DNA of 64,000 nt from Zootoca vivipara. Taxonomy: Eukaryota. Positions 28,401-34,400 of this stretch are shown piece after piece. Numbering within the stretch: the first letter of the stretch is position 1; the number at the start of each line of letters is the position of its first letter. The position numbers are program-made. The DNA lies in assembly GCF_963506605.1 (NCBI RefSeq), contig NC_083277.1, positions 3,906,001 through 3,970,000 on the forward strand, given 5' to 3'.

Positions 28401-31400
28401 TTGAGACGTTTGGGGCATTTAAGTTTGTGAATGAATGGGTTCCTGCAGTGATTTGAGGTGAGCAGGTTTTAAGGTGTGAAGGTATGCTGACCTTGCAAGT
28501 GGGAAAGCAAATTCTGTATTGTCTTTTTGCTTTTGCAAACTCCTTTTTGGGTGAAGATCAGGGTGGATTTTATTTAAATCATGATTTAAATCACTAGTCA
28601 GTAAAATTTGATTTAAATCTTTTTTTTTACAGAAAGACTCCTTCTTGCTTGTATCATCTTAATATTGACAACCAAAGGAAGGTTTCATTTTTGGAATAAA
28701 AAATTTTCAGAGTAGGTTTTTTACAGTTATATAAAAAATTACTGATTTGGTTATACTATTAGAAATACATAGACAGATAATTATGAAATTATGACGAGGT
28801 TTAATAAGTTAACTGTTTATATTTGGACAATGCCAGACTTGTTAGGAAAACTCAGCAATAAGGGAGAAGAGTCTAGCCGCTCTAATACTTGTATTATTAA
28901 ATCTCAGAGGAAAAAAGTGAGGCCATCAACTTTTTCGAAGTGGAAGCTGGAAAATCCGTGGCTGGAAATGTTTGCTGATGTTATGATATGCCTCGTCTGC
29001 AAAGAATTTGCACGGGCCGAGGATACGAGTTTCGTAAAAGGCTGCGCAACATTCAAGATTGAAACGGTGAGTTTATATTTATATTCTGCAAATACAATTT
29101 GCCAAATTTGTTAAACTTCCCTAAACAGATGTCTTCTAAAAGTCAGATAGTTGTTTATTACTTAACTGTCCAGGGTTCCTTTACCTTTTCCTTTTACCTA
29201 CAATAATCTCTAATTCCTTCTGTCGCTCATAGTTCAAATATCATACTATAATATTTCTTTAAACAGTCCGAAAAAGGCTTCCATTCTTCCATAAAACAAC
29301 CATCATTAAGCTGTCTTATTTTAGCTGTTAACTTTGCCAATTCAGCATAGTCCATCAGTTTGCTTTTCCATTCTTCTTTGGTGGGAATCTCTTCCTCCCA
29401 TTTTTGTGCAGAAAATATCCTGGCTGCTGTCATTACGTACATAAATAAATGCCCTTCAGCACTGATTCTGAATTGTTTTATTTGGTGTTTTGTTGTTGTT
29501 GTTTAGTCGTTTAGTCGTGTCCGACTCTTCGTGACCCCATGGACCAGAGCACGCCAGGCACTCTTGTCTTCCACTGCCTCCCACAGTTTGCTCAGACTCA
29601 TGTTTGTAGCTTCAAGAACACTGTCCAACCATCTTGTCCTCTGTCGTCCCCTTCTCCTAGTGCCCTCAATCTTTCCCAACATCAGGGTCTTTTCCAGGGA
29701 GTTTTCTCTTCTCATGAGGTGGCCAAAGTATTGGAGCCTCAGCTTCAATACTTGTGAGCACTCAGGGCTGATTTCCGTCAGAATGGATAGGTTTGATCTT
29801 CTTGCAGTCCATGGGACTCTCAAGAGTCTCCTCCAGCACCGTAAATCAAAAGCATCAATTCTTCGGCGATCAGCCTTCTTTATGGTCCAGCTCTCACTTC
29901 CATACATCACTACTGGGAAAACCATAGCTTTAACTATACGGACCTTTGTAGGCAAGGTGATGTCTCTGCTTTTTAAGATGCTGTCTAGGTTTGTCATTGC
30001 TTTTCTCCCAAGAAGCAGGCGTCTTTTAATTTCGTGACTGCTGTCACCATCTGCAGTAATCAAGGAGCCCAAGAAAGTAAAATCTCTCACTGCCTCCATT
30101 TCTTCCCCTTCTATTTGCCAGGAGGTGATGGGACCAGTGGCCATGACCTTGGTTTTTTTGATGTTGAGCTTCAGACCATATTCTGCACTCTCCTCTTTCA
30201 CCCTCATTAAAAGGTTCTTTAATTCCTCCTCACTTTCTGCCATCAAGGTTGTGTCATCTGCATACCTGAGGTTGTTGATATTTCTTCCAGCAATCTTAAT
30301 TCCGTCTTGGGATTCATCCAGTCCAGCCTTTCGCATGATGAATTCTGCATATAAGTTAAATAAACAGGGAGACAATATACAACCTTGTCGTACTCCTTTC
30401 CCAATTTTGAACCAATCAGTTGTTCCATATCCAGTTCTAACTGTAGCTTCTTGTCCCACATAGAGATTTCTCAGGAGACAGATGAGGTGATCAGGCACTC
30501 CCATTTCTTTAAGAATTTGCCATAGTTTGCTATGGTCGACACAGTCAAAGGCTTTTGCATAGTCAATGAATTTGGTGTTTTAATGTGCTGTAAACAGCTA
30601 CGAGATTAATTTTATTATATGAAAGTGGTATATGAATAATAATAATAGTGTGATGCAGCAGTAAAGAAAAGCTAATGCTGTTCTAGGCTGCATCAATAGA
30701 CCACACTTGGAATACTGTGCCCAGTTCTGGGCGCCACAATTTAAGAGGGATATTAACAAGGTGGAACGTGTAGAGGAGGGCAACTAGGATGATCAAAGTT
30801 TTAGAAGCCAAGCCTTATGAGGAATGCTTATAGCAGCTGGGTATTTTTAACCTAGAAAAGAGGAGACAGAGAGGAGATACGATAGTCATCTTCAAATATC
30901 TTAAGGGCTGTCACACAGAGGGGGGAGAATGTTTGTTTTCTCCTACTCTGGAGGGTAGGACTCAAACGAACGTCTTCAAGTTGCAAGAAAGGAGATTCCA
31001 ACTAAACAGCTGGAAAAACTTTCTTACAGTAAGAGCTGTTTGGTTGTGGAACAGACTCCCATGAGAGGTGGTGGACTCTCCTTCCTTGGAGGTTTTAAAG
31101 TAGAGGTTGGATGGCCATCTGCCATGGATGCTTTAGTTGAGATTCCTGCATTGCAGGGGGTTGGACTAGATGACCCTTGGGTCCCTTCCAACTCTAAGAT
31201 TCTGTGATTCTATAATAACAAATTTCATTTTTGTTTCCTTTTCAGATTAAAAAACACGGTGCATCTGCTACTCACCAAAAAGCTTGCCGTGCTCAATTAG
31301 CCAGGTTGAATCCAGTGTCCACACCAGTATCGGTCCCAACGGTGCAGGAATTAAGAACGATGGACAGCAATTTGCACAGTAACTTGGAGAAGCTGTTCAA

Positions 31401-34400
31401 TACGGCATACTTCATTGTCAAGGAGAACTATTCGTTTGACGACTTCCCGGCGTTATGTGCACTGCAGAAGAAAAATGGCTTGATAGTGGGTGAGACGTAC
31501 AGGAACGACAAAGCGGCCAAGCAGTTTGCTCATTACATTGCGGAAAGCCTTCGCCTGGAGCTCAAGTACAAACTGAGTAAAGCAAATTTCTTTGGGATTT
31601 TGGCTGACGGCTCAACGGATAGATCGAACGCAGCGGCTTCCGAGATTGTTTACTTTTATTATATAAATGAAGCTGAAGTGAAATGTAGTTACGGAGCCCT
31701 TAGGGAATGTCCTAGTGAGAATGCAGCAGAAGTGAAGTCTACCATCGAGTCGGTTCTCGACGAATACATACCCGATTGGAAAAGCAAGCTGACGGCAATC
31801 AGTTTCAACGGGGCTAGCGTCGATACGGGCAACGCGTCTGGGGTTGCGAAATTGTTCCAGGACAGCTGTCCAGGTCTGGTGGCCGTGCACTGTGTCGCTC
31901 ACCAACTGGAGCTTGCGATAGGGGATGCCTTGAAGTGCGTCAAATTTGCCGGGCTCGCCGAAGATGTCGTGAAGGGTATCTACACCTTTTACCACAGTAG
32001 TCCTAAAAGGGCAAAGGAGCTGAAAGAGATCGGCGAAGTCCTGAATGAGAAAGTGCTTCGCCACATGGGTATCACCGGAATCAGGTGGCTGCAGTCGAAG
32101 AACTCTGCCGTGAAAGCTTTGGCCAACAATCTGCCCGTAGTTGTGGTGCATTTGCAGCAAATTGTGAGCAGCTCTAGCACAAAGCCAGACAGGAAGGTGG
32201 AAGCCAAGCTGAAGGGCTACTTGAAGCGTTTGAAGTCGGAACGGTTTGTCAAGTTTTTGTTTTTCATGGACGACGTTACGCACACGCTTACGAGGCTATC
32301 CGAGGTGTTTCGGAGGAAGTGTGTGTCCGTCAGCGATGTTAAAACCAGCTTGACGGCGACGAAAGAGAGGCTGCAGAGGATGGTGAAAGACAGCGGCCCT
32401 CAGCTGCAAAAGTTCGAAAGTGCCGCGCAGCTGGAGGGCAGCGTGTTAGTGTACAAAGACGTGGAAATTGTCAGTAACGCGAGCGAAGTTGGCTGCTTTG
32501 AGGAAGACCGGCGTGTCTTGCTGAGTTCAATCGTGGAAGCGATCGACAAATGGTTTGACCGCATCGGAAACGACAGAGTTCTGCGAAACGTGGAAATATT
32601 TGACCCCTGCAACATACCCAGACCAGAAAGGGACACGTCTGCAAGTGGCCATGGAGAGAAAGAATTGAGCGAACTAATGCAAGCCTTGCCCAGCAACGTG
32701 AGAGTCGACAAGGAAGCCATCTTGGAGGAGTATCAAGAGTTCAAAGTGTGGGCTATCAACAAGACAAGCATCACGTGTGAAGAAGCTTGGCAACGCCTTC
32801 AAGCAGAGTCAACGGCTTCTGCTTCGTATATTAATATATGCAAAGTTTTGAACTTTTTACGGGTACTCCCACTTAGCACTGCCGAATGCGAGAGGGGGGT
32901 TAGCCAACTAAACTTGGTTAAAACTGACAGTCGCAAACGCCTGCTTGCAACGACCATTGATGACTTACTGATGATCAAGATGAATGGTCCAGACCTAGAG
33001 ATTTTCAATGCTGCAAATGCAGTTAATTTGTGGTGGAACGATGTTGCCAGGGGGCGCATTAGAAGACCCCACTTTAAAAACAAAGACTAGGGTATTTTAA
33101 AAACTGAAGTGTGGTCCCAATATTTTTATTGTACTGTATAAACAAACAGGTAAGTGTGATTTATTCATACGCCTTTTTAAACAAACTTTGCAGGTTTTTT
33201 TGTCCTTGTCACAGAACTCATAACAAATTGATAGTAATCTTGGCAAATAAATTAGTGTTACAGGTTACCGTAATAATAGCTGCCACCTTCTTGTAATTGG
33301 TTTATCGCTTTAGCATAAGGCAGGGCCGAAAATAGGTTTTTTGTCACCTGGGTCAAAGGCCCAGTTTGGTCCCCTGCCTCCCGGATGTGTGTTTGCGTAC
33401 ATACACATACAAATAAAAATAAACACACAAACACATCAACACATTTATTCTTAAAGGGCATAAAAAGTAGGCAGTATATCATTTGAATACAAAGGAATTC
33501 TAAGAAGTATTATGACTGTATTGCCAAAGGGCCAATGAGCATCCCTTTCAGTAAAAGCAAATTATTTGTCAAAAGTTCCATGTGCAGCAATTGTCTATCT
33601 GAGGTCAGGTTTTGAATTGGATTTATTTGGTCACAGGATCATTAAAAGACTGCATTTCCATAAGATCAGCCAAGACCCTCTGGTTTCCTTTTAAAATGCT
33701 CCCCCCCCTCGTTGCGGCTTTTTGCCACCCACCCTTCTTATTGGTTCTGTGCAAACCCTTTCAAGGAGTTTTGACGTGTGAATTTACTCCTGAGTAAGCT
33801 TCAACAAGCTGGACCATGAAGAAGGCTGATCGCCGAAGAATTGATGCTTTTGAATTATGGTGCTGGAGGACTCCCTTCAGAGACCCATGGACTGCAAGAA
33901 GATCAAACCTATCCATTCTGAAGGAAATCAGCCCCGAGTGCTCACTGGAAGGACAGATCCTGAAGCTGAGTGCTCACTGGAAGGACGGATCCTGAAGCTG
34001 AGGCTCCAATACTTTGGCCACCTCATGAGAAGAGAAGACTCCCTGGAAAAGACCCTGATGTTGGGAAAGATTGAGGGCAGAAGGAGAAGGGGACGACAGA
34101 GGACAAGATGGTTGGACAGTGTTCTCAAAGCTACGAACATGAGTTTGACCAAACTGCGGGAGGCAGTGGAAGACAGGAGTGCCTGGCGTGCTCTGGTCCA
34201 TGGGGTCACGAAGAGTCAGACACGACTAAACGACTAAACAACAAGCTTCAACAATATTCCTTTCAAAATCTTTGGGATTACTCATTTTAGGAAATGATAA
34301 TTTTGTGGTCATTTTAGGTTCCATGTAAGGTGAAAAATGCTTTTTGCGAGTCTAAAGTAGAAAGTACCCTTCCGTTACAATCCTAATGGAGCCGGGCTGA

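What the first reader, a model, noticed from the sequence alone, without database searches (positions are those of the whole stretch)
28837..33090. G3 transposase looks domesticated: catalytic D-to-N change, intact ORF, TE-filled intron
Seen: the second catalytic Asp motif reads SFNGAS (expected xxDGAS), while DGSTD, CVAH, RW and CER persist. The 2.2-kb intron splitting the TTF finger holds L2, L1, BovB and CR1 fragments, yet 614 codons downstream are stop-free, and no TIR pair was found. Inference: old enough to collect several intronic insertions while the coding frame stayed under selection for a non-catalytic role.
Basis: partly seen in the sequence, partly recalled or inferred. Interest (0 to 1): 0.75.

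Follow-up and report, generated by a model that had tools for sequence, protein, structure and literature searches.

The report
Lizard KRAB gene captured dead transposase
A lacertid lizard gene joins a KRAB repressor domain to a full-length hAT transposase that has lost one catalytic aspartate, which is a further example of the known way vertebrates turn transposases into transcription factors.

Summary
A 614-codon stop-free exon (31246-33087, stop 33088-33090) encodes a hAT transposase body. It reads DGSTD, SFNGAS, CVAH, RW and CER, and follows a 2179-nt GT-AG intron (29067-31245) that splits a C..C/H..H zinc finger.

Asn188 sits in the second catalytic Asp column. All 4 of 4 orthogroup members carry N. 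All 33 of 33 other relatives in alignment A1 carry D. Of 143 further cluster representatives, 139 have D, 3 G, 1 a gap and none N.

By homology to three lacertid RefSeq models named 'ZNF862-like' (95-96% identical), the transposase exons are the 3' part of a roughly 905-codon gene starting at 24020. That gene has a KRAB exon (Pfam E 5e-21) and an acidic repeat exon. A disabled C2H2 finger relic lies just after the donor that now splices into the transposase.

This is a lacertid KRAB-transposase fusion, a known kind (Cosby et al.). The domestication reading is supported. dN/dS could not be computed because no orthologue DNA was available, and no 3D model could be made. The exons were never joined; each was searched alone.

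The parts
24020..24094 (+). Exon 1, from the ATG to a GT donor (25 codons)
   Evidence: tblastn of P0001 residues 1-25. Sequence and donor were read. It is 24/25 identical to P0003.
24335..24461 (+). Exon 2, the KRAB box
   Evidence: Pfam KRAB, E 5e-21 and 74.5 bits against a cut-off of 20.4. It is 41/42 identical to each of three orthologues. AG and GT sites were read.
26667..26744 (+). Exon 3, a short linker exon (phase 1 to phase 1)
   Evidence: tblastn of P0001 residues 64-93, with splice sites read. In the orthologues a 27-residue exon follows; it was not found in the window. The frame is kept without it.
27280..27713 (+). Exon 4, an acidic tandem-repeat linker. It is the 5' part of what was the last exon of a KRAB zinc-finger gene.
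   Evidence: tblastn. TRF finds periods of 75 and 87 nt. It has the same acceptor context and the same DD.(Q/P)NN start as the neighbours' finger exons at 18721 and 40608. The donor GTATGT is at 27714.
27710..27902 (+). Disabled C2H2 finger relic, about 1.5 fingers, left over from the parental gene
   Evidence: blastn gives 71-78% identity to finger arrays at 18861-19316, 40817-41593 and 212-1203. Pfam zf-H2C2_2 scores E 4.1e-9 and 36.7 bits, below its 40-bit cut-off. A stop at 27786-27788 and a frame change interrupt it.
28908..29066 (+). Exon 5, the transposase N-terminus with the C-x2-C half of the zinc finger
   Evidence: The acceptor TCTCAG|AGG is the one used by the orthologue models. 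It is 53/53 identical to P0001. zf-C17orf113 scores 22.4 bits, sub-threshold for this half alone.
29067..31245 (+). Intron of 2179 nt filled with interspersed repeats
   Evidence: GT..AG sites. RVT_1 fragment at 29503-30579 on the minus strand. Two repeat families have 8 and 10 or more other copies in the window.
31246..33090 (+). Exon 6. It holds the H-x5-H half of the finger, the RNase H-like core (D121, N188, C216/H219, W281), the insertion domain and the hAT C-terminal domain (E549), then the stop.
31807..31809 (+). Codon AAC for Asn188, at the second catalytic Asp position
   Evidence: for the codon. for the column counts.

Best explanation
The region is the 3' half of a lacertid-lizard host-transposase fusion gene.

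Origin. A hAT transposon of the DGSTD/DGAS clade, the group NCBI loosely labels 'ZNF862-like', landed in or just behind the last exon of a KRAB zinc-finger gene inside a KZNF cluster. A donor just upstream of the finger array now splices to an acceptor 26 codons into the transposase frame. The resulting protein is KRAB, then an acidic repeat linker, then the transposase zinc finger and the full transposase body. The original C2H2 array has decayed to a relic.

The catalytic change. The second catalytic Asp became Asn through one G-to-A change. This happened after the split from a sister copy that keeps Asp and before the lacertid genera diverged.

Inferred mechanism. The protein no longer cuts DNA. 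It binds DNA through the transposase finger and the retained DNA-contact arginines, probably as an oligomer through the hAT C-terminal domain, and the KRAB box brings in the KAP1/TRIM28 silencing machinery. Its likely targets are relics of the cognate hAT family.

Shown versus inferred. The sequence anatomy, conservation and column identity are shown here. Splicing rests on RefSeq models in other species. Loss of catalysis, DNA binding and repression are inferred.
For: 1. Gene model. tblastn of P0001 maps exons at 24020, 24335, 26667, 27280, 28908 and 31246, all with GT-AG sites. KRAB scores E 5e-21.
2. Orthologues. Three lacertid RefSeq proteins of 906-931 aa carry KRAB and zf-C17orf113 and are 95-96% identical over exon 6. 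Exon 5 is 53/53 identical and KRAB 41/42.
3. Parental gene. A finger relic 71-78% identical to the neighbours' arrays lies directly after the exon 4 donor. The neighbours' last exons share the same acceptor and start.
4. Asn188. It is N in 4/4 orthogroup members and D in 33/33 others in A1. Among 143 further representatives, 139 have D, 3 G, 1 a gap and 0 N.
5. Identity of the column. The family profile hits Hermes transposase at E 1.4e-8 and 3.4e-11, with CERGFS aligned to SERTFS. A weak N-terminal stretch places DGSTD on Hermes DLWTD. The D-to-D spacing is 67 here, 68 in the Hermes chain printed, and 67 in Kat1 (D310, D377). A CxxH motif follows it, as in Kat1 and Hermes.
6. Constraint. The chance of the open frame is 1.5e-15. 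The same species pairs differ 1.6-4.2% in this gene against 5.9-7.3% in the paralogue. The only indel between window and orthologues in exon 6 is in frame.
7. DNA-contact residues. R563 and R565 align to Hermes R586 and R588, which contact the TIR according to passages of PMC4763223. The paralogue has W at 563.
8. Tree. The fused clade and the NOC2L-side clade are sisters, and four unfused 574-614-aa proteins lie outside them. Each of these nodes has support 100 (quick tree).
9. Precedent. KRAB is the host domain in 32 of 94 transposase captures, and such fusions repress in a sequence-specific manner (sections 4-6 of 10.1101/2020.05.07.082677).
Against: - No RNA evidence was available for this genome, and the exon joins come from computational RefSeq models in other species.
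- A 27-residue exon present in all three orthologues was not found in the window, so this species' transcript may differ.
- The frame stays open upstream to an ATG at 28830, so an unfused isoform cannot be excluded.
- dN/dS was not measured.
- Sites that vary among the four orthologues avoid family-conserved columns only weakly (Mann-Whitney p 0.029; Fisher p 0.44).
- Exon 6 alone is below Pfam's cut-off for the hAT dimerisation domain (19.7 against 21.4 bits).
- The N-terminal alignment to Hermes is not significant on its own (independent E 160).
- No 3D model could be made.
- No cognate transposon ends were found that could serve as binding sites.
Confidence: 0.75

Rival explanations
1. It is a stand-alone domesticated transposase of 693 codons that starts at ATG 28830, and the KRAB exons upstream belong to a separate or only occasionally joined transcript.
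For: The frame is open from 28773 and has an ATG at 28830, 26 codons before the acceptor. The sister paralogue has an isoform that begins inside the transposase (P0005).
Against: All three orthologue models enter at the acceptor equivalent to 28908 from the KRAB and repeat exons. The KRAB exon is 41/42 conserved. The parental finger array is disabled, so the KRAB exons have no other DNA-binding partner. Similarity to relatives begins at RKKVRPSTF, right at the acceptor.
Confidence: 0.1
2. It is the lizard orthologue of the old amniote gene ZNF862 and not a lacertid-specific capture.
For: NCBI names the orthologues 'zinc finger protein 862-like'. The domain types match what I recall of ZNF862: KRAB, a TTF-like finger and a hAT body.
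Against: The closest relatives outside lacertids are unfused proteins of 545-614 aa at 47-51% identity. The sister copy at 70% identity is not KRAB-fused. Searches of 1076-3070 aa and 498-1586 aa found no ZNF862-sized relative, though this is weak evidence because the searches are word-based. The same label is given to frog, acorn-worm, bass and mussel proteins. The upstream exons and the finger relic are homologous to the local KZNF cluster.
Confidence: 0.07
3. It is an immobilised transposon copy that is simply decaying. The open frame and the Asn are incidental.
For: No TIRs were found. A catalytic residue is lost, and 6 of 48 family-conserved columns have changed.
Against: The frame is intact in four species. 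The chance of 614 open codons is 1.5e-15. Identity across genera is 96% and evolution is slower than in the paralogue. It is spliced to a conserved KRAB exon.
Confidence: 0.04
4. The protein is still a nuclease or recombinase. Asn188 is tolerated, or activity is supplied in trans through hetero-oligomers with the paralogue that keeps the DDE triad.
For: D121, CxxH, W281 and E549 are all kept. The paralogue keeps D-D-E. Catalytically active domesticated hAT proteins exist, for example Kat1 (PMC4763223).
Against: Mutants of the Kat1 DDE residues lose both cleavage and strand transfer. Asn occurs in none of the 175 other relatives that have a residue in this column. The neighbouring Gly is also replaced in P. 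raffonei (SFNRAS), and F552 of the ERGFS motif is V in 4/4 orthogroup members. The paralogue itself has lost R280, H302 and R563.
Confidence: 0.04

Closest known systems
KRAB-transposase fusion genes (host-transposase fusions, e.g. KRABINER; Cosby et al., preprint 10.1101/2020.05.07.082677, sections 4-6 and passages read)
   Same: A transposon sits inside a KRAB zinc-finger gene. A splice acceptor at the start of the transposase frame is joined to upstream KRAB exons. The parental transcript has been lost and the gene is conserved in a small clade. The paper reports hAT as the source of 23.4% of such fusions and KRAB as host domain in 32 of 94 events.
   Different: The whole transposase body of 614 codons is kept, not only the DNA-binding part. 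One catalytic Asp is replaced. The insertion is at the finger exon itself and leaves a finger relic, whereas KRABINER arose from an insertion in the last intron. The legend of the paper's Fig. 1 lists a 'Lacertid' branch, but the table of genes is in supplements that I could not open, so this gene may or may not already be listed there.
Hermes and Kat1 hAT transposases (PDB 6dww, 4d1q, 2bw3, 8edg; PMC4763223)
   Same: The order and spacing of D, D, CxxH, W and E match. The C-terminal hAT domain gives significant similarity (E 3.4e-11). The arginines after the catalytic Glu align with Hermes TIR contacts.
   Different: The second Asp is Asn. The first Asp motif is DGSTD and not D-x-W. The N-terminal finger is of the zf-C17orf113 type and not BED. 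No TIRs or target-site duplications were found. The protein is fused to KRAB.
Sister paralogue beside NOC2L in lacertids (P0004-P0006)
   Same: It is 69-71% identical, has the same intron position in the finger and the same exon-6 acceptor, and is intact in three species.
   Different: It keeps the Asp-Asp-Glu triad but has lost R280, H302, R563 and other family-conserved residues. It evolves 2-3.7 times faster. It has no KRAB, and two RefSeq models join it to NOC2L N-terminal exons.
Human ZNF862 (recalled, not fetched or compared)
   Same: As I recall it, ZNF862 combines KRAB with a TTF-like finger and a hAT-derived body. The RefSeq name of the lizard orthologues points to it.
   Different: No direct comparison was made. 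The searches that could have found a protein of that size found none. The evidence favours an independent, lacertid-specific capture.

Membership tests
hAT superfamily transposase (as an active enzyme) | Asp-Asp-Glu catalytic triad on an RNase H-like core | tested here: not met
   D121 and E549 are present. The second Asp is Asn188 in 4/4 orthogroup members.
hAT superfamily transposase (as an active enzyme) | Terminal inverted repeats with 8-bp target-site duplication | tested here: not met
   No credible flanking pair among 98 short inverted pairs.
hAT superfamily (descent) | C-terminal hAT domain with the catalytic Glu in an S/C-E-R-x-F-S motif | tested here: met
   The family profile hits Hermes at E 1.4e-8 and 3.4e-11, with ERGFS on ERTFS. 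Pfam PF05699 scores 19.7 bits for the window exon alone, below the 21.4 cut-off, and 36 bits for relatives P0007 and P0021.
hAT superfamily (descent) | CxxH motif after the second Asp, and a conserved Trp before the insertion domain | tested here: met
   C216 and H219 are each kept in 141 of 143 further relatives, and W281 in 142 of 143. The role of the motif is taken from PMC4763223 passages.
hAT superfamily (descent) | RNase H-like fold with an all-alpha insertion domain, shown by structure | not tested
KRAB-transposase fusion gene | KRAB exon joined in frame to transposase exons | tested here: met
   KRAB scores E 5e-21. All five introns are GT-AG and the phases fit. Three orthologue RefSeq models carry the join. 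There is no RNA evidence for this genome.
KRAB-transposase fusion gene | Transposase DNA-binding domain retained | tested here: met
   The C-x2-C and H-x5-H ligands are kept across the intron. P0001 scores 35.3 bits for zf-C17orf113, above the 29.5 cut-off.
KRAB-transposase fusion gene | Purifying selection on the transposase part (dN/dS below 1) | tested here: inconclusive
   The evidence is indirect only: an intact frame in 4 species, 96% identity, and 2-3.7 times slower change than the paralogue. No orthologue DNA was available for a codon model.
KRAB-transposase fusion gene | KAP1-dependent, sequence-specific repression | not testable with these tools
   This needs a reporter assay or ChIP.
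ZNF862 orthologue | Closest relationship and synteny with amniote ZNF862 | tested here: inconclusive
   No protein of that size appeared among the hits. The nearest non-lacertid relatives are unfused. The searches are word-based, and synteny could not be examined.

The most novel reading that the evidence does not exclude
Lacertids may hold a pair of sister domesticated hAT genes with divided roles. One is KRAB-tethered and disarmed by Asp188Asn but keeps the TIR-contact arginines. The other lies beside NOC2L, still carries the full Asp-Asp-Glu triad, and has lost those contacts. If the two co-assemble through the hAT C-terminal domain, the KRAB copy could act as a targeting and silencing subunit, or as a dominant-negative brake, for a still-catalytic partner. 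The Asn would then be a selected safety catch and not decay.
Probability: 0.1. Interest if true: 0.65.

Novelty: new member of a known kind. Interest (0 to 1): 0.38.

Why it matters
The locus preserves the intermediate steps of transposase capture in readable form. The parental KRAB zinc-finger gene's finger relic still lies between the donor and the captured transposase. The acceptor sits at the first conserved residue of the transposase. A sister copy that keeps the catalytic Asp dates the Asp-to-Asn change to after the duplication and before the lacertid genera split.

It is also a young, clade-restricted candidate transcription factor in which the whole transposase body, not only its DNA-binding part, has been kept. 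That raises the question of what the non-catalytic core is used for.

The kind of gene is already well described, and the orthologues are already annotated in RefSeq. The value is therefore as a well-resolved example of a known process.

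Tried and rejected
- Structure prediction and fold search. Structure prediction answered 'being made ready'. Each retry came only after twenty other calls. There is therefore no model and no Foldseek comparison with Hermes.
- Protein Atlas look-up of the second hAT-like frame.
- dN/dS. No collection available here holds lizard DNA, so no codon alignment could be built. A protein-only proxy asked whether sites that vary among orthologues avoid family-conserved columns. It gave only a weak signal (Mann-Whitney p 0.029, Fisher p 0.44).
- Genome copy number. 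Only the window (one copy) and the annotated proteins (two loci per lacertid among named hits) could be examined. Repeat-masked copies would not show up in either.
- The small orthologue exon 'DVLKPD...KKLA' was searched in the window at E up to 50 and not found.
- The search for longer, fused relatives found none. The search with P0001 residues 294-906 against 498-1586-aa proteins found no ZNF862-sized protein.
- TIRs were sought and rejected as chance matches.
- Literature. PMC3093488 (catalytic domains of cut-and-paste transposases) is not held. The Hermes paper PMC10368747 does not give the catalytic residue numbers in its main text. The numbers D180, D248 and E572 are therefore my recollection, anchored by W182 from PMC4763223 and the chain printed. 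Supplements of Cosby et al. (Table S3) are closed.
- Four paper searches listed no paper describing this lacertid gene.
- The careful tree search did not finish in 288 s, so the tree cited is the quick one.
- The joined spliced protein was not assembled or searched. Every exon was handled alone.

Full report
What is at the coordinates

The window has no N. Its best protein matches are lacertid lizards, so it is not human sequence.

Window 31219-33090 is a single open frame. From the acceptor (TTTTCAG|ATT, exon start 31246) to the TAG at 33088-33090 there are 614 codons. Composition alone gives such a run a chance of 1.5e-15, and 2000 shuffles never exceeded 186 codons.

Upstream, an exon ends at 29066 before GTGAGT. 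The intron is 29067-31245, 2179 nt, in phase 0. It separates a C-x2-C half (CLVC) from an H-x5-H half (HGASATH) of one zinc finger. Pfam calls this finger zf-C17orf113.

The intron holds a reverse-transcriptase fragment on the minus strand (RVT_1, E 1.1e-25). Its 3' end recurs at least 8 times in the window. A second repeat at 30698-31213 recurs at least 10 times. BovB and CR1 fit my recollection of those elements' tails, while L1 and L2 stay unchecked. No terminal inverted repeats stand out.

The catalytic column

The exon-6 protein reads DGSTD (121-125), SFNGAS (186-191), CVAH (216-219), RW (280-281) and CER (548-550).

Alignment A1 has 37 sequences. In it, position 188 is Asn in the window and in all three orthologues, and Asp in all 33 other sequences, including the three lacertid paralogues.

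An exhaustive HMMER scan found 8207 cluster representatives at E up to 0.001. I added 143 of the best 150 to the alignment, leaving out the seven already in A1. The column was then D in 139, G in 3, a gap in 1 and N in none. The codon is AAC, one G-to-A step from GAC.

Several results show that this is the second catalytic Asp:
- The family profile matches Hermes transposase significantly (E 1.4e-8 with A1; E 3.4e-11 with the 92-sequence A2). The match places CERGFS on Hermes SERTFS.
- Within the same hit, a weak stretch places SilaDGSTD on Hermes SATIDLWTD. This stretch is not significant alone (independent E 160).
- One search printed the Hermes chain with IDLWTD and FVTDRGANVV 68 residues apart.
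- Passages of PMC4763223 give Hermes W182, H268 in CXXH, W319, and K585/R586/R588 as TIR contacts. They give the Kat1 catalytic triad as D310, D377 and E895, with C402/H405 as CXXH.
- The first-to-second spacing is 67 in Kat1, 68 in Hermes and 67 here (D121 to N188), followed by CxxH, Trp and Glu in the same order.

The Hermes residue numbers D180, D248 and E572 are my recollection, anchored by W182.

The gene is larger than the finding

The top hits are 'zinc finger protein 862-like' from Lacerta agilis, Podarcis raffonei and P. muralis. They are 906-931 aa, 95-96% identical over exon 6, and carry KRAB and zf-C17orf113.

Mapping P0001 on the window gives the following exons:
- Exon 1: 24020-24094, starting at the ATG.
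- Exon 2: 24335-24461, the KRAB box (Pfam E 5e-21; 41/42 identical to each orthologue).
- Exon 3: 26667-26744.
- Exon 4: 27280-27713, acidic tandem repeats of 75-87 nt.
- Exon 5: 28908-29066, 53/53 identical to P0001.
- Exon 6: 31246-33090.

All five introns are GT-AG and the phases fit. The exon lengths sum to 905 codons. This figure is arithmetic only.

Similarity to other transposases starts exactly there.

A 27-residue exon of the orthologues was not found in the window. The frame is unaffected by its absence.

How the fusion arose

The window is a KRAB zinc-finger cluster. It has finger arrays at 2-1618 (minus strand), 18691-19389 and 40575-41525, and KRAB exons at 14173, 39361 and 46188.

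The neighbours' last exons start with the same acceptor context and the same DD.(Q/P)NN motif as exon 4, and then run into their fingers.

In this gene the donor at 27714 is followed by a finger relic at 27710-27902. The relic is 71-78% identical to the neighbours' arrays and is recognised by Pfam below its cut-off (zf-H2C2_2, E 4.1e-9, 36.7 bits against 40). It is broken by a stop at 27786-27788 and a frame change. Homology to finger arrays ends near 27902.

The simplest reading is that a hAT element inserted in or behind the finger exon and the transposase was captured by splicing. The parental DNA-binding array then decayed. This is the three-step route described by Cosby et al. (sections 4-6 and the discussion passage of the preprint). 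They found KRAB in 32 of 94 independent captures and an acceptor at the start of the transposase frame in 8 of 9 cases examined.

Relatives and timing

A quick IQ-TREE tree of 23 rows (the careful search did not finish) puts the four fused proteins in one clade. The three 'NOC2L isoform' proteins form its sister clade, and four unnamed unfused proteins of 574-614 aa (48-51% identical) lie outside. Each of these nodes has support 100.

The sister copy keeps Asp at 188. The change to Asn therefore came after the duplication and before Lacerta, Podarcis and the window's lineage split.

Searches that could have found a ZNF862-sized relative found none. This is weak evidence because those searches are word-based. 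The 'ZNF862-like' label is also attached to frog, acorn-worm, bass and mussel proteins. It is therefore a generic name and not evidence of orthology.

Evidence for constraint

The window protein is 96.2%, 96.4% and 95.9% identical to the three orthologues (23, 22 and 25 differences in 613 aligned positions).

For the same species pairs, the fused gene differs by 1.6% (the two Podarcis species) and 4.2% (L. agilis against P. raffonei). The paralogue differs by 5.9% and 7.3%. The fused gene thus changes 2-3.7 times more slowly than a copy that is itself still intact.

Of 48 columns conserved in at least 90% of 30 outgroup sequences, the fused clade departs at six in all four members (117, 162, 188, 356, 436, 552), plus one more column in a single species. 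The paralogue departs at 15 of the 48 columns.

Two departures in the fused clade touch the active site: D188N and F552V in ERGFS. P. raffonei has also changed the neighbouring Gly (SFNRAS). In contrast, R563 and R565 align with Hermes TIR-contact arginines and are kept, while the paralogue has Trp at 563.

The evidence against is weaker but real. Sites that vary among the orthologues avoid conserved columns only weakly (p 0.029 and 0.44). No codon-based test could be run.

Likely function

The steps here are inferred and not shown. The protein binds DNA through the transposase finger and core. It probably oligomerises through the hAT C-terminal region. It cannot cleave DNA because one metal-binding Asp is an amide. 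It silences bound loci through KRAB and KAP1.

Verdict

The unit is a KRAB-hAT fusion gene of a known kind, already annotated in three relatives. Four paper searches listed no description of this gene.

Noticed in passing
window 54199-56007 (+): This is a second stop-free transposase-like frame of 603 codons, unrelated in sequence to the finding (BLASTP E 0.23). It matches Hermes transposase (E 9e-6), with ADCWT on IDLWT, TTDNGCN on VTDRGAN and AAERLF on ASERTF. The CxxH position reads CASY, with Tyr in place of His. Pfam matches are below threshold. It may be another immobilised or domesticated hAT gene.
   Followed up: partly
window 59885-63999 (+): A Ty3/gypsy-type retroelement has an open gag frame (Retrotrans_gag, E 1.3e-16). 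Its 1003-codon pol frame carries protease, RT, RNase H and integrase matches and runs off the window end.
   Followed up: no
proteins P0004 and P0006 (not in the window): RefSeq models in L. agilis and P. muralis join NOC2L N-terminal exons to the paralogue's exon-6 acceptor (…EKLE|IRKHGAS). The product is a chimera that lacks the C-x2-C half of the finger. This could be a second host-transposase fusion or a read-through artefact.
   Followed up: partly
window 39361-39480 (+): The KRAB exon of a neighbouring zinc-finger gene carries an in-frame stop, although its finger exon at 40575-41525 is open with 7 fingers.
   Followed up: no
window 26745-27279: The intron where the orthologues have a 27-residue exon holds a 135-nt repeat (27061-27195) that is 95% identical to 58199-58333 on the other strand. 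No trace of that exon was found.
   Followed up: partly
window 27280-27713: The copy number of the acidic repeat linker differs among species: the protein is 906 aa in L. agilis and P. muralis and 931 aa in P. raffonei, and the window carries the extra unit seen in P. raffonei. This part is the least conserved of the protein.
   Followed up: partly
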